A stretch of DNA of 64,000 bases from Candidatus Nomurabacteria bacterium (GCA_943356775.1 CALRFU010000002.1:48524-112523), one strand, 5' to 3'. Counted from the first letter of the stretch, positions 811 to 64,000 are shown. Translations and numbers: made by a program. The notes: generated from the letters alone by a model not told the origin.

Positions 811-889
811 GTGCACTGCATCATATGGGGTACCGTATCGATTTGTTTGCTCGGAAGCAGAAAAGCGAAGCATTTCTGCTTCGCTCACT

Positions 890-1248
890 GCACTGCATCG
901 ATAAGCCGGATTCTGTCGAGGACAACCATGTATCTGGGATGAGTGTCGCCACTCACCTCAAGCGGCTCTCTCAGTCACGCCGCGCTGTATTCGTATTCCA
1001 AATACAATGCGGCGCGACCAAGCACGGCCTTGCACGCGGGTAGGATTTTTGCCGTTGCACCTTCATGTTTCCATGAAGCTACTCCTGATCGGAGCCCTAG
1101 CCTCTCGGCGTCGGCGTCTCTGTTCGCATCCCTAGGATTACCCCGGCGGGCGTTACCCGCTACCCTGCTCCACCTTTTTTGCAAAACGTGGGCGTGTCCG
1201 GACTTTCCTCTAGTAGCTTGCGCCACCAGCGGCTGCCTAATGCAGAAA
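890..1248 (-). ncRNA. rnpB: RNase P RNA, bacterial type A
   Basis: The minus strand carries GAGGAAAGUCCGGAC (P4 5' strand; plus 1197-1210). It also carries AGCAGGGUAGCGGGUAACGCCCGC (P8/P9 region, compare E. coli CAGGGUGCCAGGUAACGCCUGG). UGCGAACAGAGA matches the P10/11 region. Near the 3' end is ACAGAAUCCGGCUUAUCG (E. coli ACAGAACCCGGCUUAUCGG). The ends are approximate; P1 is taken as CUGCAU/AUGCAG. Confidence 0.8.
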
Positions 1249-5339: not shown

Positions 5340-5424
5340 CGGAGGGTGAGGGATTCGAACCCTCGGTGCCTTTCGGCACACACGCTTTCCAAGCGTGCGC
5401 ACTAGACCACTATGCGAACCCTCC
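5340..5424 (-). tRNA. tRNA-Ser (anticodon GGA), class II with long variable arm
   Basis: Reverse complement reads GGAGGGT-TC-GCA-TAGTGGTCTAG-TGC-G-CACGC-TTGGAAA-GCGTG-TGTGCCGAAAGGCACC-GAGGG-TTCGAAT-CCCTC-ACCCTCC-G. The 7-bp acceptor stem, 3-bp D stem, U33 and A37 are all present. The anticodon is GGA. CCA is not encoded. An extended -10 (TGATATAAA) lies just upstream at about 5436-5444. Confidence 0.85.
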
Positions 5425-35813: not shown

Positions 35814-37580
35814 CTACCGAATCAAGTCTCTAATCCTCGCTCTGATTTTATCAAGCTGAAAATTGAATCTTTCCGCGGCAGGCTTTAGTTGCTCAAAATA
35901 GGCTCGATCCATTCCCTCACTAATCCGATTCATCCACCTCCCCATTTCATCAACGACCTGATTGTATATCGTGTCTTTTGTTGCGGCAGCTTTAAAATCA
36001 CCCGATGCCATTTCGGCAAGTGTATTTGAAATGTGCTCACTCTCAGATTTTGCGCTGTATATACTAAGCATGCCTGGTGGTGCTGACTCAAGTTTTTCCC
36101 ACCCCGTATATGTATATGGCGCATTATTGCCGTATAAAGTTGTTGACCAGTAGTCACTATTAACGCCCATAAAATTTGGATCTAAACTCATCGGATTTTT
36201 TCTTGTGTTATTTAAAAAATGCCCCACCTCGTGCACTCCGGTGAAAAATACATCGGCGTTTGACCTCTCCGGTGCTTCCGATATGTTCAATGTGTTCACA
36301 AAGTTGAAAGGAGATCCTAAGCTGCTGCTGTCGAGTGTAATTCCGAGATTATTTCCATTACTACCTAATAACGATATGTAAATATTCTGGGGTAACTTTT
36401 CGAAAACGGCGGAATTGAAAGTCTCTCGGAGACCCCGCGTCCACACATCTGCACGATCCGCCCAATCTTGCATTGGCAAGAGATTTGGAGTTGCGCCTGT
36501 CCCACCACCTTTTGCGTCAGCGACCCCCAAGCCTACCGCAGTTTGTATATCTGTTTGCGTAAAGCCAGTAAATGAACTGAGCGAGGGTGAAGGCACAAAA
36601 GTCATCCGATTGCCGGTGGTATCTCGAAGCTGCTGGTCATAGTTTGGTATATTATATGCTTCTGCACCCATAGATCTAAATTCTTGCAACCTATTGAGGG
36701 AAATGTCCTGTGCGATGCCTGATGTTTTCACAAGTCCATCTTGATTTTGCAGTAAGCGCAATTGTTCTTGAGCGTCAATCTGCGATGTTAGACTTTTTAG
36801 TTCAGGATTGTCCGCGATTCCTTTTGCCAATGACGAAAGGTCAACATTTCTCCCCAAGTATGCATCTTCGAGTGCCGCATATCTGGCGCGAGGATCGCCC
36901 TCGTTGATCCACTCGCGAAGTGATTCGATAGGAGTGTTTCTATCTACGGTCGTTTCCTGTCCATCTGCTCCTCGCAGAGTAATTGTTTTACCATCGAGAG
37001 TATCGTTGATTCGCAATATCTCGTTTCCTGTAAAGGCGTTATAGTAGCTATAGTCAAATTTCAAGAAATACCGTGTCTCGTCCAAATCCAGCGGACTTCC
37101 AGCTTTGCCACGAAGTTGGGCACGAACATCTTCGGTTGCATAATAATCGAGTTCTTTTCCATAGTTGCTGATAATATCTTGCCACTCTTTGCGACATGCG
37201 CCTCCCCCCATCTCGGGATTACAAGGTGCTTGCGATTTTTCGGAGATCGCTTTGCACGTACCTTCTTTATCGCAGATTCGCTCCACCTTACATGAGCCTT
37301 CTTTTGTGCAGTGCCCCTTGAGTGTATCGCCACTCGATTCTTTATCCGAACATTGCACCTTCGTAATATCTTCGAGTTTGCCGAGTTGATTCTTGCAAAA
37401 CTCGTTTGCGGATTTGCTTCCGGACGATGCCTGCGTTTCTGGTTCAGCCGCAGCACCAGCCGCAAATAAAGTATCTTTTTGTGGTTTGAAATCCATCAAG
37501 GCGATTGCAAACGAAATGAATACGACGAGAGCCGCGATTGTCAAAATCGGTAGAATCCCCCCCCCTGACTTCTCAACCAT
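35814..37580 (-). CDS. putative membrane-anchored zinc metallopeptidase (HExxH)
   Basis: 588 aa. N-terminal TM, Cys-rich region, and a single HEVGHF motif. A TATAAT box lies 10 nt upstream of the ATG, suggesting a leaderless mRNA. Confidence 0.55.
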   Translation of the reverse strand: MVEKSGGGILPILTIAALVVFISFAIALMDFKPQKDTLFAAGAAAEPETQASSGSKSANEFCKNQLGKLEDITKVQCSDKESSGDTLKGHCTKEGSCKVERICDKEGTCKAISEKSQAPCNPEMGGGACRKEWQDIISNYGKELDYYATEDVRAQLRGKAGSPLDLDETRYFLKFDYSYYNAFTGNEILRINDTLDGKTITLRGADGQETTVDRNTPIESLREWINEGDPRARYAALEDAYLGRNVDLSSLAKGIADNPELKSLTSQIDAQEQLRLLQNQDGLVKTSGIAQDISLNRLQEFRSMGAEAYNIPNYDQQLRDTTGNRMTFVPSPSLSSFTGFTQTDIQTAVGLGVADAKGGGTGATPNLLPMQDWADRADVWTRGLRETFNSAVFEKLPQNIYISLLGSNGNNLGITLDSSSLGSPFNFVNTLNISEAPERSNADVFFTGVHEVGHFLNNTRKNPMSLDPNFMGVNSDYWSTTLYGNNAPYTYTGWEKLESAPPGMLSIYSAKSESEHISNTLAEMASGDFKAAATKDTIYNQVVDEMGRWMNRISEGMDRAYFEQLKPAAERFNFQLDKIRARIRDLIR

Positions 37581-61357: not shown

Positions 61358-61385
61358 TTGACTATTCACCCCAAAAGTATATATT
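61358..61385 (+). promoter_or_regulatory. sigma70-like promoter for the NYN-domain gene
   Basis: TTGACT, a 16-nt spacer, then TATATT. GGAG lies 5 nt before the ATG at 61460. Confidence 0.3.
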
Positions 61386-61459
61386 GTACTCATACACGCC
61401 CCAGCCGACCGCAAGGTTCGCTGGGGTTTTTCGTTGCCTATTGCTACAATGCGGAGCAA

Positions 61460-62077
61460 ATGCAAACGATCCTGCTCATAGACGGAGAGAACATTAAGGG
61501 CAAAATCCGGTCCGTCTTCAAGGATGCCAGTAAGGCAAAGCCGGTTTGGCACGAATACGATTTCCGAGGACTTTTGGATAAGGTTCTGGAGGGCATCAAA
61601 ATAGACCGGAAGGTATTTTATTTTGCGCGTATCAAAGAGCACGAGCAGAGTAAAGAGAAATCAAAACAACTCATCGAGGACCAGCGACAGTTCAAGACGC
61701 ATTTGGAGAAGCAGGGCTTCGAGGTGATCTTGAGCGGACGAGTGCGCGGGCAGTTGGAAGACGGGCAGGGCGGTAAAAAGATGCTGGTCTTCAAAGAGAA
61801 GGGCGTGGACGTGAAGATCGCCGTTGATATGGTCAGCTTATCGTGCGACAAGAAGGTCAAAGAGATAATCCTCGGCAGTTCCGACAGCGATCTTCAACCG
61901 GCGATCAAAGAAGTACGGGATCGGCAGGTCAGTTGCGTATATCTTGGGTTTGAAGCGCAACCGAACAAGGGAATGACGTTTACGACGAACAGGACTATTT
62001 TGATACGAAACTCCGAACTATTTGAGTTTGAAAAAATACAGCCAACACTCATTTCGACTGATCCGCCTCGCCATTAG
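61460..62077 (+). CDS. NYN-domain (LabA-like, PIN-like) protein
   Basis: MQTILLIDGENIKGK... and GVDVKIAVDMVSL...IILGSSDSDLQPAIKEV match NYN/LabA acidic-residue motifs. The 3' end overlaps the RT 3' end by 29 nt on the opposite strand. Confidence 0.75.
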   Translation: MQTILLIDGENIKGKIRSVFKDASKAKPVWHEYDFRGLLDKVLEGIKIDRKVFYFARIKEHEQSKEKSKQLIEDQRQFKTHLEKQGFEVILSGRVRGQLEDGQGGKKMLVFKEKGVDVKIAVDMVSLSCDKKVKEIILGSSDSDLQPAIKEVRDRQVSCVYLGFEAQPNKGMTFTTNRTILIRNSELFEFEKIQPTLISTDPPRH

Positions 62078-63083
62078 GTTCCCGCATCCTTTCTACCTCA
62101 TCCTCGACAACCTGTCGCAGCTTTTTGGTATTCCCATGGCTCATCAATCCAAAGTAGGATTGCACCGTTTCTTCCTTACCCTGTCGCGCTTTGATACCGC
62201 GAAACATTCTGTTTTTCGTAGTTGTACGCAAAACTCGATGGTCGAGAAAATGCACCCAGCCCAGAAAATCCACGCCTGACGCAAGGGTGCGCAGAGAAAT
62301 CTTTTGTGGGTGGAGCGTTAGTCGCAACTCGTCCCGTAAAAAATCTCCCATACGCGACAACACCTCTTGTAGCCATTTTCTATCAGTCGAGAGCAACACG
62401 AAATCATCGGCGTAGCGGACGTAATGCTTTACTCGAAGCTGTTGCTTCACAAAATGGTCAAACTCGTTCATATACACATTGACCAAGAGCTGGGAGGTGA
62501 GGTTGCCGAGAGGGAGCCCTACACTTCTTTCGCTTGAGTGGAAGCTCTCGATGATTTGGGATAGAAGCCAGAGAATGTCGTCATTTTGGATATAGCGTCG
62601 CAGTATCTCCATCAAACGGGCGTGGTCTACCGAGGCAAAGAACTTCCGTATGTCGCATTTGAGCACCCAAACCGTGCGCGTGTGATTATGAGATACCTGA
62701 TAGGCAAAGGAGCGAAAGCAATTTACCGCCTTGTGCCCGCCTTTATTTCTTCTGCACGAGTAAGAGTGGGCAATGAAAGTCCTATCAAAAAATGGGTAGA
62801 GCTTGCGGTAGAGCGCGTGATGCAGCAAACGGTCTCTCACGCTCGCCTTATGTATGTTCCGTGGCTTTGGGTCGGAAATGTTGAACGCCTCATACGGAGA
62901 ATGTTTGTATGTTTTGGCAGCAAGGTCTCGATGGAGTGAAAGAATGTGGTACATCAGATTGTGCTCGAACTTTTGGACATCGGTACGGGACCGCTTGCCC
63001 CGCACAAACTCTTTCCATGCCTCAAGCAGATTTTCGACGGAAATGATACTCTCGTAGGTATGAACGAGTTGGATGCGGGCCAT
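62049..63083 (-). CDS. diversity-generating retroelement (DGR) reverse transcriptase
   Basis: RT motifs 1-7 are present (PRNIHKASVRDRLLHHALY, KCDIRKFFASVDHARL, YADD in VRYADDFVLL). Motif 4 reads LPLGNLTSQLLVNVYMNEFD, the DGR-diagnostic GxxxSQ, in place of the group II/retron QGxxxSP. 344 aa with no maturase or endonuclease domains. Start MARIQLVHTY; ATG at 63081-63083 verified. Confidence 0.85.
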   Translation of the reverse strand: MARIQLVHTYESIISVENLLEAWKEFVRGKRSRTDVQKFEHNLMYHILSLHRDLAAKTYKHSPYEAFNISDPKPRNIHKASVRDRLLHHALYRKLYPFFDRTFIAHSYSCRRNKGGHKAVNCFRSFAYQVSHNHTRTVWVLKCDIRKFFASVDHARLMEILRRYIQNDDILWLLSQIIESFHSSERSVGLPLGNLTSQLLVNVYMNEFDHFVKQQLRVKHYVRYADDFVLLSTDRKWLQEVLSRMGDFLRDELRLTLHPQKISLRTLASGVDFLGWVHFLDHRVLRTTTKNRMFRGIKARQGKEETVQSYFGLMSHGNTKKLRQVVEDEVERMREPNGEADQSK

Positions 63084-63096
63084 ATCATTGAAGCGT

Positions 63097-63110
63097 CCCC
63101 CCCCCCCCCC
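63097..63110. repeat. C14 homopolymer (G14 on the RT strand) between the divergent RT and avd starts
   Basis: Read directly. 14 consecutive C lie 14 nt upstream of the RT start codon on the minus strand and 12 nt upstream of the annotated avd TTG on the plus strand. Confidence 0.9.
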
Positions 63111-63121
63111 GACTTCTGCCT

Positions 63122-63478
63122 TTGTTACAGAAGGTAAAAAATGCGTACCTGTTGTGGTACGGCTACTATCAGGCCATTCCGAAAGTCCACAGGCATTCTC
63201 TTGGTCAGCGAGTTGATACATTGTTTGTTGAGATCATGGAAACGATAGCGGCGGCGAGTTTTCTTGTACGGGAAGAAAAACGACCTTACGTGCGTCTCGC
63301 CATCAGAAAAACAGATACCTTGAAAGTGCTTTTGATGCTGCTGTGGGAAACGAAGTCATTGGACAACAAAAAGTATGCCGCACTTTCGGTGAAAGTAGAA
63401 GAAATCGGCAAGATGCTCGGCGGCTGGAATGGACAGCTTACAAAACTCGACCCCGCCAAGAAGCGGGGTGAGAAGTGA
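63122..63478 (+). CDS. avd: Avd-like accessory variability determinant (four-helix-bundle / 23S rRNA-IVS protein family)
   Basis: WYGYYQAIPKVHRH aligns to bAvd YLYPIAQSIPRKHG. KVEEIGKMLGGWNGQLTKL aligns to IAEVGRILGSWIARVNRK. The start is uncertain: TTG at 63122, with about 15 aa missing relative to bAvd. It is on the opposite strand to RT and TR. Confidence 0.75.
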   Translation: MLQKVKNAYLLWYGYYQAIPKVHRHSLGQRVDTLFVEIMETIAAASFLVREEKRPYVRLAIRKTDTLKVLLMLLWETKSLDNKKYAALSVKVEEIGKMLGGWNGQLTKLDPAKKRGEK

Positions 63479-63484
63479 AGCGAG

Positions 63485-63620
63485 TTGCGAAGCGAGCCGC
63501 AGGGTTGTTGTCGTTCCAGTCGTTGTCGAGCCAGTTCCAGTTCACCACCACCTCGCCACCGTTCTCGATGAGGTACGGGACGTTGAGGTTGCCGTCGCGG
63601 TTCTGCACGATTGTACAAAA
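63485..63620 (-). repeat. DGR template repeat (TR), adenines on the minus strand; the 3' end carries an IMH*-like GC-rich element
   Basis: Plus 63485-63538 matches plus 63947-64000 at 45 of 54 positions. Eight of the 9 mismatches are T in this copy on the plus strand (A on the minus strand) against A/G/C in the other copy. On the minus strand the TR reads GTG AAC TGG AAC TGG CTC GAC AAC GAC TGG AAC GAC AAC AAC CCT GCG GCT CGC TTC GCA, rich in AAC codons. The far (5') boundary is not determinable because the VR is cut by the window edge. Confidence 0.65.
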
Positions 63621-63842
63621 TGCCGTCCGTTGCACTGCCCATTGAATACTCGCCGAGCTGTATCGTATTCGGCATCGGTAAATGCCATAGCACTTTGTAC
63701 CAAGTATCTTCAACTTTTTGTGAGCTTCGCATATGCCACTCCATCTCAAACCGTGGTCGGAGATGCTCTCGGCGTATGGACGCTGGGTTCGGTAGCGGGA
63801 AACCGTAATCGCCCGCGTATTCACCTACTTCCGCTTCGCATT

Positions 63843-63888
63843 GTATCAAAACAAAACCCCGCGCTGCCATATTTCAGACAACGCGGGG
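63843..63888 (-). terminator. rho-independent terminator of the DGR target gene
   Basis: Minus strand CCCCGCG-N18-CGCGGGG followed by UUUUGUUUUG, about 55 nt after the target stop. Confidence 0.6.
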
Positions 63889-63941
63889 CAAAGGGCAAGG
63901 TGCAAAGGGTCAAACAAGACCCAAGGCACCAAGCACCGAGT

Positions 63942-64000
63942 TCAACTTGCGAAGCGAGCCGCAGGGTAGTAAGCGAACCAGTCGTAGGCGAGCCAGTCCC
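63942..64000 (-). CDS. DGR target (variable) protein, C-terminal end only; the gene continues beyond the window edge
   Basis: The minus strand reads ...D W L A Y D W F A Y Y P A A R F A S stop (TGA at 63942-63944). This is in frame with the TR-encoded N W L D N D W N D N N P A A R F A. Codon changes N->D/Y/F and D->A all arise from A->N substitutions at first/second positions of AAC/GAC codons. Confidence 0.65.
   Translation of the reverse strand, partial: DWLAYDWFAYYPAARFAS
63947..64000 (-). repeat. DGR variable repeat (VR), partial, with IMH-like 20-mer CCCTGCGGCTCGCTTCGCAA at its 3' end
   Basis: See the TR entry. The 20-nt GC-rich block is identical in TR and VR. Flanking sequence diverges immediately 3' of it. 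Confidence 0.65.

What the first reader, a model, noticed from the sequence alone, without database searches (positions are those of the whole stretch)
62049..64000. Diversity-generating retroelement at the window edge: RT with GxxxSQ, Avd, and a TR/VR pair with adenine-specific mismatches
Three independent signatures co-localise within 2 kb. The first is a short (344 aa) reverse transcriptase. Its motif 4 is LGNLTSQ, the DGR hallmark, rather than the QGxxxSP of group II/retron RTs, and it has YADD. The second is a 118-aa ORF matching the Bordetella-phage Avd four-helix bundle at both conserved ends. The third is two about 54-bp near-identical repeats, 63485-63538 and 63947-64000. They differ at 9 positions. 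Eight of these are adenines on the minus strand of the 63485 copy, replaced by T/C/G in the 63947 copy. The variable copy sits at the extreme 3' end of a minus-strand ORF (...DWLAYDWFAYYPAARFAS stop) that leaves the window. The template copy reads NWLDNDWNDNNPAARFA with AAC-rich codons, the classic DGR codon usage. A 20-nt GC-rich block (CCCTGCGGCTCGCTTCGCAA) is identical at the 3' end of both repeats, then flanks diverge. This resembles IMH/IMH*. The target protein identity (C-type-lectin versus other fold) cannot be judged because only 18 residues are in the window.
Basis: partly seen in the sequence, partly recalled or inferred. Interest (0 to 1): 0.85.

Follow-up and report, generated by a model that had tools for sequence, protein, structure and literature searches.

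The report
Active Patescibacteria diversity-generating retroelement cassette
This is a genuine, currently active diversity-generating retroelement of the type common in ultra-small (CPR/Patescibacteria) bacteria. The element itself is ordinary for that group, but it carries two conserved features I could not find described: a structured RNA leader fused to the template and a hypervariable repeat tract next to its accessory gene.

Summary
The window edge carries a complete DGR: RT (62049-63083, minus), Avd (63122-63478, plus, opposite strand), TR (63485-63613, minus) and the 3' end of the VR (63947-64000). A near-identical contig supplies the rest. The target is a 194-aa protein with no known domain and a weakly C-type-lectin-like predicted fold. 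TR and VR are 129 nt long, and 23 of 24 mismatches fall on TR adenines. Seven VR alleles from near-clonal populations differ only at TR adenines while the TR stays fixed, so the element is active.

The layout, target-TR-(avd)-RT, is the published B3 architecture typical of CPR DGRs. It is therefore a new member of a known kind.

Three added findings:
- The 333-nt VR-TR "spacer" holds a promoter and a roughly 220-nt covariation-supported structured RNA leader. The leader ends 0-4 nt before the TR.
- A hairpin plus U-tract follows the TR, antisense to the end of avd.
- A poly-G or other simple repeat sits between the avd domain and the RT start in about 70 of 74 related loci. Its length is the only difference among clonal copies (8-14 G). 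This suggests phase-variable control, which is inferred, not shown.

The parts
62049..63083 (-). DGR reverse transcriptase, 344 aa, with motif 4 LGNLTSQ and catalytic YADD
   Evidence: Pfam RVT_1 gives E=3e-24. The best PDB match is 8ub7, a 328-aa chain deposited as 'Reverse transcriptase', at E=1.8e-44; taking it as Bordetella bRT is my identification. Group II RTs score 1.2e-27. 589 relatives were found, most of them titled Patescibacteria, Paceibacterota or other CPR lineages.
63097..63110 (.). Hypervariable simple-sequence repeat: 14 C on the + strand, which is poly-G on the RT-sense strand. It lies 13 nt upstream of the RT start codon and between candidate avd start codons (TTG 63088, ATG 63073) and the Avd domain.
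   Evidence: Length is 8-14 in otherwise identical cassettes. A poly-G of 7-14 nt occurs at the same place in 64 of 74 related loci, and other SSRs in 6 more. About 62 of the 73 G/C runs of 7 nt or more in 598 kb of loci lie there.
63122..63478 (+). avd (accessory variability determinant), 118 aa from TTG 63122. It is opposite in orientation to RT, TR and target. The true start may lie upstream of the repeat tract.
   Evidence: Pfam bAvd scores 44.4 bits against a gathering cutoff of 40. NCBIfam DivGenRetAVD scores 59.7 bits, below its cutoff of 80. The same reversed orientation is seen in all 74 related loci where avd could be located. The reading frame is open through the SSR in 71 of 71 loci.
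63440..63484 (-). 3' module of the TR RNA: a linker (63470-63484, containing the avd stop codon in antisense), a hairpin (63450-63469) and a U-rich tract (63440-63449). It is encoded antisense to the last ~13 codons of avd (codons 107-118 plus the stop).
   Evidence: The scan flags it as terminator-like. The linker, hairpin and GTTTTGTTTT are conserved in about 50 loci, with different but complementary stems. The linker is complementary to the leader segment AAAUGAAGA, with compensatory changes.
63485..63613 (-). Template repeat (TR), 129 nt with 33 adenines. IMH*-like block at 63485-63504.
   Evidence: There are 20 diversifiable codons (10 AAC), none can mutate to a stop, and the theoretical repertoire is about 10^17.8 protein variants. 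The TR is identical in 13 of 18 near-identical cassettes in which it could be read.
63614..63832 (-). Conserved structured RNA leader (~219 nt) directly abutting the 5' end of the TR. It has two long hairpins (P1, P2) with UACG-type loops and a 12-bp long-range helix (P3) enclosing two further hairpins.
   Evidence: In the 39-locus alignment, 45 of 59 predicted pairs show compensatory changes. 96.3% of cells are paired, against 37-48% when partners are slid. 0 of 500 shuffles reach the observed values. The covariance model hits once per locus in 62 loci and once in the window (63728-63832, 109 bits), and nowhere else in 673 kb. TR homology starts 0-4 nt after P3 in 35 of 39 loci. There is no Rfam match.
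63840..63848 (-). Extended -10 promoter-like element TGATACAAT, 7 nt upstream of the first conserved leader base. It is the likely TR-RNA promoter.
   Evidence: TGnTAnAnT is conserved at the same position in most of 53 loci. This is a consensus match only; no transcript data exist.
63856..63889 (-). Intrinsic-terminator-like hairpin (13-bp stem followed by a T-tract) ending the target-gene transcript
   Evidence: Analogous GC-rich hairpins with T-tracts are visible in related loci.
63890..63941 (-). Target 3' UTR element: degenerate CTTnG repeats with a 7-8-nt period, including a small hairpin at 63899-63930 (GGTGC CTT GGGTC TTGTTT GACCC TTT GCACC). It is a candidate analogue of the hairpin downstream of IMH that marks the VR as recipient.
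   Evidence: A perfect stem of 5 bp or more occurs within 60 nt of the VR in 31 of 53 loci, against 8.2 +/- 2.9 in shuffles. CTT occurs 5.2 times per 75 nt, against 2.2 in shuffles, with spacing peaked at 7-8 nt.
63942..64000 (-). 3' end of the target gene: stop codon at 63942-63944, IMH-like block at 63947-63966, and the in-window part of the VR at 63947-64000. The VR continues to about 64075 and the gene to about 64526, both outside the window.

Best explanation
The locus is a complete, recently active diversity-generating retroelement of the Patescibacteria (CPR) clade, with the layout target-VR / TR / (avd, reversed) / RT.

Shown here:
- The RT, Avd, TR and VR are all present.
- TR-to-VR differences are adenine-specific.
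- Natural populations carry many VR alleles that differ only at TR adenines.

Inferred mechanism:
1. A dedicated non-coding RNA of roughly 390 nt is transcribed from an extended -10 promoter just after the target gene's terminator.
2. This RNA consists of a 219-nt structured leader, the 129-nt TR, a short linker that pairs back to the leader, and a hairpin plus U-tract. The last is a probable Avd-binding stem-loop and/or terminator.
3. The RT-Avd complex reverse-transcribes the TR from its 3' end, misincorporating opposite adenines. It stops at the 12-bp P3 helix that abuts the TR 5' boundary.
4. The cDNA replaces the VR. The shared GC-rich 20-nt block sets the 3' limit, and the divergent downstream hairpin and repeat region marks the VR as recipient.
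5. The result rewrites 20 codons of a small, probably C-type-lectin-like binding protein, giving about 10^18 possible variants.
6. A hypermutable repeat tract at the head-to-head avd/RT junction probably switches Avd and/or RT expression on and off by slippage. In that case only a subpopulation would mutagenise at any time.
For: RT:
- Pfam RVT_1 match.
- The closest solved structure is 8ub7, deposited as 'Reverse transcriptase' (E=1.8e-44). It shares motif 4 (I/L)GxLTSQ with the window RT. I take it to be Bordetella bRT.

Avd:
- Pfam bAvd scores above its gathering threshold.

TR and VR:
- 129 nt, with 23 of 24 mismatches at TR adenines, P=4e-13.
- Adenines sit in codon positions 1-2, there are 10 AAC codons, and no stop codon can arise.

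Activity:
- 17 proteins at least 86% identical to the target are nearly invariant over residues 1-153 and vary only in the VR.
- At DNA level there are 7 VR alleles. Each VR with its own TR on the contig differs from it only at TR adenines (14-24 sites), apart from the single C-to-T change in the window's allele.
- The TR is identical in 13 of 18 cassettes.
- 30 of 33 adenine columns vary, against 5 of 96 other columns, Fisher P=8e-21.

Architecture:
- avd is reversed in all 74 related loci where it could be located, and a TR/VR pair was found in 59 loci.
- This matches the published B3 architecture TR-(avd)-RT, which makes up 90% of the CPR set (PMC5758913), and the Patescibacteria-restricted DGR clade 2 (PMC8144416).

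RNA:
- Leader covariation.
- One covariance-model hit per locus.
- The P3/TR boundary coincides.
- A leader:linker duplex with compensatory changes.
- A conserved 3' hairpin plus U-tract.
- These parallel the upstream:downstream 'cPRT Stop' duplex and the Avd-binding stem-loop described for the Bordetella DGR RNA (bioRxiv 10.1101/2023.10.23.563531).

Repeat tract.
Against: - One VR/TR mismatch is not at an adenine (C to T).
- Avd scores below NCBIfam's equivalog cutoff (59.7 against 80 bits). A profile of 35 Avd homologues finds no solved structure by sequence.
- No transcript, cDNA or protein data exist. The promoter, RNA ends, priming site and the effect of the repeat tract are all inferred.
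- The single-sequence fold of the whole RNA is not better than shuffles (z=-0.9). Support for the structure comes only from covariation.
- With 14 C, the window's genotype puts the upstream avd start codons out of frame, so this particular copy may be in an 'off' state.
- Homopolymer lengths in short-read assemblies are error-prone.
Confidence: 0.95

Rival explanations
1. The element is a decayed, no longer active DGR remnant, and the TR/VR differences are old.
For: The window's poly-C length (14) leaves the upstream avd starts out of frame. One related contig (L087) has its RT split into two gene calls.
Against: The RT, Avd and target ORFs are intact. Seven distinct VR alleles occur on cassettes that are otherwise 94-100% identical. 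The TR is unchanged, and all differences are at TR adenines. This requires repeated recent retrohoming.
Confidence: 0.03
2. The RT belongs to another prokaryotic RT class (group II intron, retron, or Abi/DRT defence RT), and the repeats are coincidental.
For: NCBIfam's best-scoring models are the group II intron RT/maturase (149 bits) and Drt3a/retron models. NCBIfam returned no DGR RT model among its hits.
Against: All of those scores are far below the family cutoffs (149 against 300, 73 against 200, 61 against 235). The best solved relative is the 8ub7 chain that I identify as bRT. No group II intron or retron RNA is found by Rfam. The adenine-specific TR/VR pair and the adjacent Avd are DGR-defining.
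Confidence: 0.01
3. The repeat tract between avd and RT has no switching role. Its length differences are homopolymer sequencing or assembly errors, and its conservation reflects another function, for example a G-rich ribosome-binding or 5' UTR element for RT, or a poly-proline N-terminus of Avd.
For: - Short-read assemblers mis-size long homopolymers.
- The G-run is always on the RT-sense strand, 10-17 nt from the RT start. It could pair with the anti-Shine-Dalgarno sequence (inference).
- In-frame ('on') lengths are not enriched: 5 of 15 clonal copies, and an upstream in-frame start exists in 30 of 71 loci (my tally of the rows).
Against: - Lengths of 8, 13 and 14 on cassettes identical over 1,900 flanking bases exceed typical +/-1 errors.
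- In six lineages the G-run is replaced at the same site by 2-, 4- or 7-nt unit repeats of 32-77 nt. These share hypermutability but not sequence.
- Several contigs break exactly at the tract.
- 33 of 71 loci have no canonical start codon between the tract and the conserved Avd N-terminal motif.
- The only other G/C run of 7 nt or more in the 64-kb window also sits in codons 6-8 of an ORF.
Confidence: 0.3

Closest known systems
CPR/Patescibacteria DGRs: 'B3' architecture TR-(avd)-RT of Wu et al. 2018 (PMC5758913); DGR clade 2 of Roux et al. 2021 (PMC8144416)
   Same: The gene order and reversed avd are the same, and the host is the same (most related loci are from MAGs titled Patescibacteria, Paceibacterota or other CPR lineages). 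The target is a small protein without a recognisable domain or transmembrane segment. The VR is C-terminal and the TR is AAC-rich.
   Different: Nothing essential differs; this is a member. The leader RNA, the hairpin/U-tract antisense to avd and the repeat tract appear to be properties of the whole class. I did not find them described in the papers I could read.
Bordetella phage BPP-1 DGR (mtd-avd-TR-brt), the prototype
   Same: - The RT matches the solved 328-aa chain 8ub7, which I identify as bRT, over 303 residues and shares motif 4 and YxDD.
- Avd is an accessory protein in both.
- Mutagenesis is adenine-specific.
- A GC-rich IMH-like block lies at the 3' end of VR and TR.
- A hairpin lies downstream of the VR.
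- A stem-loop follows the TR directly, and a duplex joins sequences upstream and downstream of the TR.
   Different: - avd is on the other strand and lies between TR and RT, rather than between VR and TR.
- The large structured RNA element is about 220 nt upstream of the TR. In BPP-1 it is a 140-nt spacer downstream.
- The RNA downstream of the TR looks terminated after about 45 nt.
- IMH and IMH* are identical over 20 nt.
- The locus is chromosomal, not phage-borne.
- The target is a 194-aa protein, not a tail fibre.
- A repeat tract sits at the avd/RT junction.
Simple-sequence-repeat contingency loci (for example Neisseria, Haemophilus and Campylobacter poly-G or tetranucleotide phase variation)
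   Same: A homopolymer of 8-14 nt, or 2-, 4- or 7-nt unit repeats, lies at the 5' end of an ORF or in a very short divergent control region. Its length is polymorphic among otherwise identical genomes, and unit sizes are never a multiple of three.
   Different: Switching of expression has not been shown. The controlled function would be a mutagenesis machine rather than a surface antigen. The library search found no paper that combines CPR bacteria or DGRs with phase variation.
Group II intron RTs and retron RTs
   Same: They share the RVT_1 palm and fingers and are the nearest non-DGR relatives by sequence.
   Different: Scores are below all family cutoffs. There is no intron or msr/msd RNA and no maturase or endonuclease domains, while a TR/VR pair and Avd are present.

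Membership tests
Diversity-generating retroelement (DGR) | Reverse transcriptase of the DGR type, with motif 4 (I/L/V)GxxxSQ in place of the QGxxxSP of group II and retron RTs, and a catalytic YxDD | tested here: met
   LGNLTSQ and YADD are present in the translation. The best PDB match is 8ub7, deposited as 'Reverse transcriptase', at E=1.8e-44, with IGSLTSQ aligned; I identify it as bRT. Group II RTs score 1.2e-27. No formal phylogeny was made.
Diversity-generating retroelement (DGR) | A template repeat and a variable repeat whose differences fall almost only on TR adenines | tested here: met
   129-nt repeats with 23 of 24 mismatches at TR adenines, P=4e-13. The same pattern is seen in 59 related loci.
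Diversity-generating retroelement (DGR) | VR inside a protein-coding target gene, typically at its 3' end | tested here: met
   The VR is the last 43 codons of a 194-aa ORF, seen only with the extension contig L001.
Diversity-generating retroelement (DGR) | Evidence of ongoing mutagenic retrohoming, meaning VR alleles that vary at TR-adenine positions within populations | tested here: met
   There are 7 VR alleles and a constant TR. 30 of 33 adenine columns are variable, against 5 of 96 others, Fisher P=8e-21.
Diversity-generating retroelement (DGR) | Accessory protein Avd (present in most but not all DGRs) | tested here: met
   Pfam bAvd scores 44.4 bits, above the gathering cutoff of 40. NCBIfam DivGenRetAVD scores 59.7 bits, below its equivalog cutoff of 80.
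Diversity-generating retroelement (DGR) | An IMH at the VR 3' end, an IMH* at the TR 3' end, and an inverted repeat downstream of IMH only | tested here: inconclusive
   A GC-rich 20-nt block is identical in both copies and the flanks diverge. A small hairpin and repeat array follow the VR only. Function was not tested. The two IMH blocks are identical, so discrimination must rely on the flanks.
Diversity-generating retroelement (DGR) | Variable residues displayed on a C-type-lectin fold | tested here: inconclusive
CPR-type DGR, architecture B3 (Wu et al. 2018) | Core order TR-(avd, reverse strand)-RT with the target upstream, in a CPR host | tested here: met
   Window layout. The same layout is seen in the related loci, most from MAGs titled Patescibacteria or CPR lineages. 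The definition is taken from PMC5758913.
Group II intron RT/maturase | Score above the family cutoff, and intron RNA domains flanking the ORF | tested here: not met
   TIGR04416 scores 149 bits against a cutoff of 300. No group II intron RNA was found by Rfam at gathering or E<=1 thresholds.
Retron / defence-associated RTs (DRT, Abi) | Score above the family cutoff for the retron, DRT or Abi models | tested here: not met
   All scores are far below the cutoffs (for example Drt3a 73 against 200, retron St85 61 against 235).
SSR-mediated phase-variable (contingency) locus | A hypermutable simple repeat in a promoter or 5' coding region, with length polymorphism among otherwise identical genomes | tested here: met
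   Tract length is 8-14 G on cassettes with 0-1 mismatch per 1,900 nt. The position is conserved in about 70 of 74 loci, with homopolymer or 2-, 4- or 7-nt units.
SSR-mediated phase-variable (contingency) locus | Repeat length changes switch expression of the gene on and off | not testable with these tools
   There is only frame logic. With 13 or 10 G, upstream TTG/ATG starts are in frame with avd. With 14 (the window) they give a 47-aa ORF at 63073-63216.

The most novel reading that the evidence does not exclude
Two properties of this major CPR DGR class appear unreported.

1. Its template is part of a dedicated non-coding RNA of about 390 nt. The large structured domain (P1, P2 and the P3 three-way region, about 220 nt) lies upstream of the TR. 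This is effectively a permuted version of the Bordetella DGR RNA, with P3 acting as the cDNA stop.

2. The mutagenesis machinery is itself under stochastic on/off control. A hypermutable simple-sequence repeat lies inside or beside the 5' end of avd, at a head-to-head avd/RT junction. In this reading only a fraction of cells diversify their target at any time, which would be a 'contingency locus controlling a hypermutator'.
Probability: 0.35. Interest if true: 0.75.

Novelty: new member of a known kind. Interest (0 to 1): 0.5.

Why it matters
As a DGR in a Patescibacteria genome the locus is expected. According to a review read here (PMC8632793), DGR RTs make up about 80% of CPR RTs, and this exact architecture is catalogued.

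Its value lies in what the comparative analysis exposes about the whole class.

- There is a well-supported new structured RNA, absent from Rfam. It probably organises reverse transcription differently from the only biochemically studied DGR.
- There is a conserved hypervariable repeat that could explain how DGR activity is regulated. I found nothing on DGR regulation in the papers read here, and from my own knowledge it is poorly understood.

Both are directly testable in reconstituted systems. They could also guide engineering of compact DGR-based mutagenesis tools.

Tried and rejected
- Exact look-up of the 118-aa Avd found nothing. The gene callers used other starts.
- NCBIfam, Pfam and PDB sequence searches of the target gave no usable hit.
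- Foldseek against PDB gave nothing significant for the target model. The AFDB50 library was unavailable.
- A profile of 35 Avd homologues found no solved structure. I therefore could not align the N-terminus to Bordetella Avd to settle where avd starts.
- The single-sequence fold of the 393-nt RNA was not better than shuffles.
- A column-pair scan for leader-to-tail pairings mostly returned non-specific purine:U-tract matches. Only the AAAUGAAGA:UCUUCAUUU duplex held up on per-sequence inspection.
- A search for further VR copies in the window, tolerant at adenine positions, found none.
- Rfam at gathering and at E<=1 found nothing at the locus.
- Paul et al. 2017 could not be read, and the supplements of Wu et al. 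are not held.
- I considered that the VR-TR spacer might encode a protein. I rejected this because its length is not constrained to multiples of three and its conservation follows base-pairing.
- I considered the repeat tract as the spacer of an RT promoter (TGGYAA-N16-20-TAGAAT). This remains possible for the poly-G loci, but it cannot explain loci whose repeat arrays are 32-77 nt long.

Full report
**1. The observation**

- A minus-strand ORF at 62049-63221 contains the RT. Starting from the Met at 63083, the RT is 344 aa and carries ...PLGNLTSQLL... and ...VRYADDFV....
- A plus-strand 118-aa ORF at 63122-63478 is the Avd candidate.
- The repeat finder returns one strong direct repeat, 63485-63538 and 63947-64000, at 83% identity.
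- Of its 9 mismatches, 8 are T on the + strand of the 63485 copy, which means A on the minus strand.
- The 20-nt block CCCTGCGGCTCGCTTCGCAA is shared by both copies, and the flanks diverge after it.

**2. Extending beyond the window**

The exact RT protein is encoded on a public 13-kb contig, L001 (ENA ERZ27280196). L001 is identical to the window over the 2.2-kb overlap except for one base in a homopolymer, 13 G against 14. One search found no mismatch in the 890 and 1,000 nt on the two sides of the tract.

- L001 shows that the VR-bearing ORF encodes 194 aa and ends ...DWLAYDWFAYYPAARFAS*.
- TR and VR are 129 nt long: TR at window 63485-63613, VR at 63947 to about 64075.
- They carry 24 mismatches, 23 at TR adenines.
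- With 33 of 129 TR bases being A, the binomial P is 4e-13.
- In frame, the TR has 20 diversifiable codons, ten of them AAC. None can mutate to a stop. The theoretical repertoire is about 10^17.8 proteins.

**3. The proteins**

- RT: Pfam RVT_1 matches. The best solved relative is 8ub7, a 328-aa chain that the file names only 'Reverse transcriptase', at E=1.8e-44, with IGSLTSQ aligned to LGNLTSQ. I take this chain to be Bordetella-phage bRT from its length and motif 4. The bRT cryo-EM preprint I read does not contain the code. It ranks ahead of group II (1.2e-27) and retron-type RTs.
- NCBIfam returned no DGR RT model. Its group II, retron and DRT models all score far below their cutoffs.
- Avd: it passes the Pfam bAvd gathering threshold. 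It matches NCBIfam DivGenRetAVD below the equivalog cutoff.
- Target: it has no Pfam, NCBIfam or PDB sequence match, but it has 303 homologues, the few that carry an organism name being from CPR or unclassified bacteria. An AlphaFold model built on 78 homologues is confident, with pLDDT 89.
- I regard a divergent C-type-lectin-like fold as likely but not shown.

**4. Activity**

The 90%-identity cluster of the target, together with its nearest clusters, gives 17 proteins. They are nearly invariant over residues 1-153 and differ almost only at the VR positions encoded by adenine-containing TR codons.

I fetched 19 loci carrying these alleles.

- At DNA level there are 7 distinct VRs.
- Every VR that has its own TR on the same contig differs from that TR only at TR adenines (14-24 sites). 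The single exception is the C-to-T change in the window's allele.
- The TR is identical in 13 of 18 cassettes in which it could be read. Two minor TR variants account for the rest.
- 30 of 33 adenine columns vary among alleles, against 5 of 96 other columns, Fisher P=8e-21.

This is the population signature of ongoing mutagenic retrohoming. It excludes a dead remnant. No additional VR copy exists elsewhere in the 64-kb window.

**5. What kind of DGR**

Most of the 80 best are from MAGs titled Paceibacterota, Parcubacteria, Patescibacteria or other CPR lineages, many others are labelled only 'bacterium', and a few carry non-CPR labels.

- In every one of the 74 loci where avd could be located, it lies immediately upstream of RT on the opposite strand.
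- In 59 loci an adenine-biased TR/VR pair lies upstream. The TR ends at the avd stop codon, and the VR lies about 460-530 nt further up.
- This is the 'B3' architecture TR-(avd)-RT. Wu et al. report it for 90% of their CPR set and almost never elsewhere (PMC5758913).
- It also corresponds to the Patescibacteria-restricted DGR clade 2 of Roux et al., whose targets typically lack recognisable domains (PMC8144416).

The locus is therefore a new member of a known kind.

**6. The 'spacer' between VR and TR is a functional RNA**

Comparing the 53 best-defined loci shows a fixed order after the target stop codon:

1. A T-rich region with degenerate CTTnG repeats at a 7-8-nt period, containing a small hairpin.
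   - A perfect stem of 5 bp or more occurs in 31 of 53 loci, against 8.2 +/- 2.9 in shuffles.
   - CTT occurs 5.2 times per 75 nt, against 2.2 in shuffles.
2. A strong terminator-like hairpin (window 63856-63889).
3. A conserved extended -10 element TGnTAnAnT (window 63840-63848).
4. Seven nucleotides later, a conserved segment of about 217-226 nt that runs up to the TR.

The evidence that this segment is a structured RNA is as follows.

- Its length is not constrained to multiples of three.
- Lineage-specific insertions in it are self-complementary.
- An alignment of 39 loci gives a consensus structure of 59 pairs, 45 with compensatory double changes.
- On that structure 96.3% of cells pair, against 37-48% when partners are slid by 1-3 columns.
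- 369 cells carry double changes, against 34-88 in the slid controls. None of 500 shuffles reaches the observed values.

The structure has three parts:

- Two long hairpins, P1 and P2. Each has an apical CGAYUACGGYU sequence, most simply read as a UACG tetraloop.
- A single-stranded AAAAUGAAGAUACUUGG segment.
- A 12-bp long-range helix, P3, enclosing two further hairpins.

TR/VR homology begins 0-4 nt after the 3' strand of P3 in 35 of 39 loci.

A covariance model of P1 plus P2 gives these results over 673 kb:

- It finds exactly one hit in each of 62 loci and one in the window (63728-63832, minus strand, 109 bits).
- The hit is always on the RT-sense strand, about 650-760 nt upstream of RT.
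- 23 of the loci with hits were not used to build the model.
- It hits nowhere else.

Rfam has no matching family.

**7. Downstream of the TR**

Nearly all loci share a linker (consensus CUCUCUUCAUUUCUC), a GC-rich hairpin whose stem differs between loci but stays complementary, and then GUUUUGUUUU.

- In the window these are the linker at 63470-63484, the hairpin at 63450-63469 and the U-tract at 63440-63449.
- This module is encoded antisense to the stop codon and the last dozen or so codons of avd.
- The linker is complementary to the leader's AAAUGAAGA segment, with compensatory changes in several lineages. Examples are AAGUGA/UCACUU, AAAUAAAGU/ACUUUAUUU, GUGAAGC/GCUUCAU and AUAAAAA/UUUUUAU.

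The Bordetella DGR RNA has an Avd-binding stem-loop just after the TR. It also has an essential duplex between sequences upstream and downstream of the TR, the 'cPRT Stop', at which cDNA synthesis ends. Its authors report similar stem-loops and duplexes in other DGRs, including CPR ones, but they analysed only 40 nt upstream and 100 nt downstream of the TR (bioRxiv 10.1101/2023.10.23.563531).

My reading, which is inference:

- The CPR class uses the same logic with a permuted RNA.
- The large protein-binding scaffold lies 5' of the TR.
- P3 and/or the leader:linker duplex bound the template.
- The 3' hairpin serves as an Avd-binding element and probably as an intrinsic terminator, so that the TR is made as a discrete RNA of about 390 nt.

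The priming nucleotide cannot be identified from sequence.

**8. The repeat tract**

The window has 14 C at 63097-63110 (poly-G on the RT strand), 13 nt upstream of the RT start codon.

- Among near-identical cassettes the tract is 8, 10, 10, 10, 11, 11, 11, 11, 12, 12, 12, 12, 13 or 13 nt long, and 14 nt in the window.
- Within groups that share the same VR allele and have 0-1 mismatch in 1,900 flanking bases, tract length is the only difference: 14/13/8, 12/11, 12/11/12/10, 11/10/10 and 11/12.
- Across species, 64 of 74 loci have a G-run of 7-14 nt at the same site.
- Six others have a different simple repeat there: (CTGG)n, (TTGG)n, (GGCT)n, (TTCG)n, (GT)n and (TGATTGC)n, spanning 32-77 nt.
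- About 62 of the 73 G/C runs of 7 nt or more in 598 kb of loci lie at this site.
- Several contigs end exactly there.

On the avd strand:

- The reading frame is open through the repeat in 71 of 71 loci.
- The conserved Avd N-terminal motif (R)(I/L)LP(V/L)LQK(V/L)K..Y begins right after the repeat.
- 33 of 71 loci have no canonical start codon between the repeat and that motif.
- No repeat type contains a stop in any avd-sense frame, whereas (TGATTGC)n has stops in all RT-sense frames.
- Unit sizes are 1, 2, 4 and 7, never a multiple of three.

In L001 (13 G), upstream TTG and ATG starts are in frame with avd, giving a 134-aa ORF. In the window (14 C), they give a 47-aa out-of-frame ORF at 63073-63216.

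The most economical reading is a slipped-strand switch on Avd translation. An effect on a promoter spacer (TGGYAA-N16-20-TAGAAT in many loci) or on the RT 5' UTR remains an alternative.

Against a simple selected 'on' state, in-frame lengths are not enriched: 5 of 15 clonal copies. Homopolymer sizing in short-read assemblies is also imperfect.

I found no paper linking DGRs or CPR bacteria with phase variation.

**9. Other context**

- The cassette, from the target promoter to about 50 nt before the RT stop (L001 8374-10986, 2.6 kb), recurs at 94-96% identity. At least two unrelated sets of flanks are seen, with sharp borders. It therefore behaves as a discrete transferable module.
- A perfect TTGACA-16-TATAAT promoter precedes the target gene, just outside the window.
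- The convergent NYN-domain gene that overlaps the RT 3' end (61358-62077) is not part of the module.

**10. Verdict**

The finding is real and correctly interpreted. It is an active DGR of the well-known CPR type, so it is ordinary as an instance. The class-wide leader RNA is strongly supported. The repeat tract is clearly conserved and polymorphic, but its function is inferred. These two features are the parts worth following up.

Noticed in passing
window 63097-63110 (and L001-L100, avd/RT junction): A poly-G/C tract lies between the avd domain and the RT start. Its length is 8-14 nt in otherwise identical cassettes. It is conserved as poly-G in 64 of 74 related loci and replaced by 2-, 4- or 7-nt unit repeats in 6 others. 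It is a candidate phase-variation switch on the DGR machinery.
   Followed up: yes
window 63614-63832 (-): A roughly 220-nt structured RNA leader is fused to the 5' end of the TR, preceded by an extended -10 element. Covariation support is strong, it has no Rfam family, and it occurs once per locus in 62 related loci.
   Followed up: yes
window 63890-63941 (-): Degenerate CTTnG repeats with a 7-8-nt period fill the 50-70 nt between the target stop codon and its terminator in nearly all related loci. They embed a small covarying hairpin. Their function is unknown; they may be the cis element that marks the VR as the recipient.
   Followed up: partly
window 37557-37565, inside ORF 35814-37580 (-): This is the only other G/C run of 7 nt or more in the 64-kb window. 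It is a 9-nt poly-G forming codons 6-8 (GGG) of a 588-aa ORF that begins with a hydrophobic, membrane-anchor-like segment. That is the classic layout of a translationally phase-variable surface protein.
   Followed up: partly
L001 8374-10986 (window about 62098 to beyond 64000): The whole DGR cassette recurs as a 2.6-kb module at 94-96% identity. Its borders are sharp and its genomic flanks are unrelated: CTP synthase/IMPDH...NYN in one case, and ResIII helicase or methyltransferase/Lnb_N contexts in the others. This suggests horizontal transfer of the cassette.
   Followed up: partly
L001 8380-8490 (outside the window, about 64595-64705): A perfect sigma-70 consensus promoter (TTGACA-16-TATAAT) and about 110 nt of 5' UTR precede the target gene. 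They are conserved at 79-83% in L002 and L003, even though those loci encode a different target protein. This may be a conserved regulatory leader.
   Followed up: no
window 61358-62077 (+): A NYN-domain (predicted RNase) gene converges on the RT and overlaps its last 29 nt. It is absent from the other genomic contexts of the cassette, so it is probably unrelated to the DGR.
   Followed up: partly
L046 6470-6599; L009 5009-5933: Some relatives carry extras. L046 has a second adenine-biased VR about 3 kb downstream of its TR, which may be a second target. L009 has a separate TR/VR pair and two further poly-G runs downstream of its RT.
   Followed up: no
window 886-1248 (-) and 5340-5424 (-): A bacterial RNase P RNA (class A, 114 bits) and a tRNA are present, consistent with a chromosomal rather than a phage context.
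   Followed up: no
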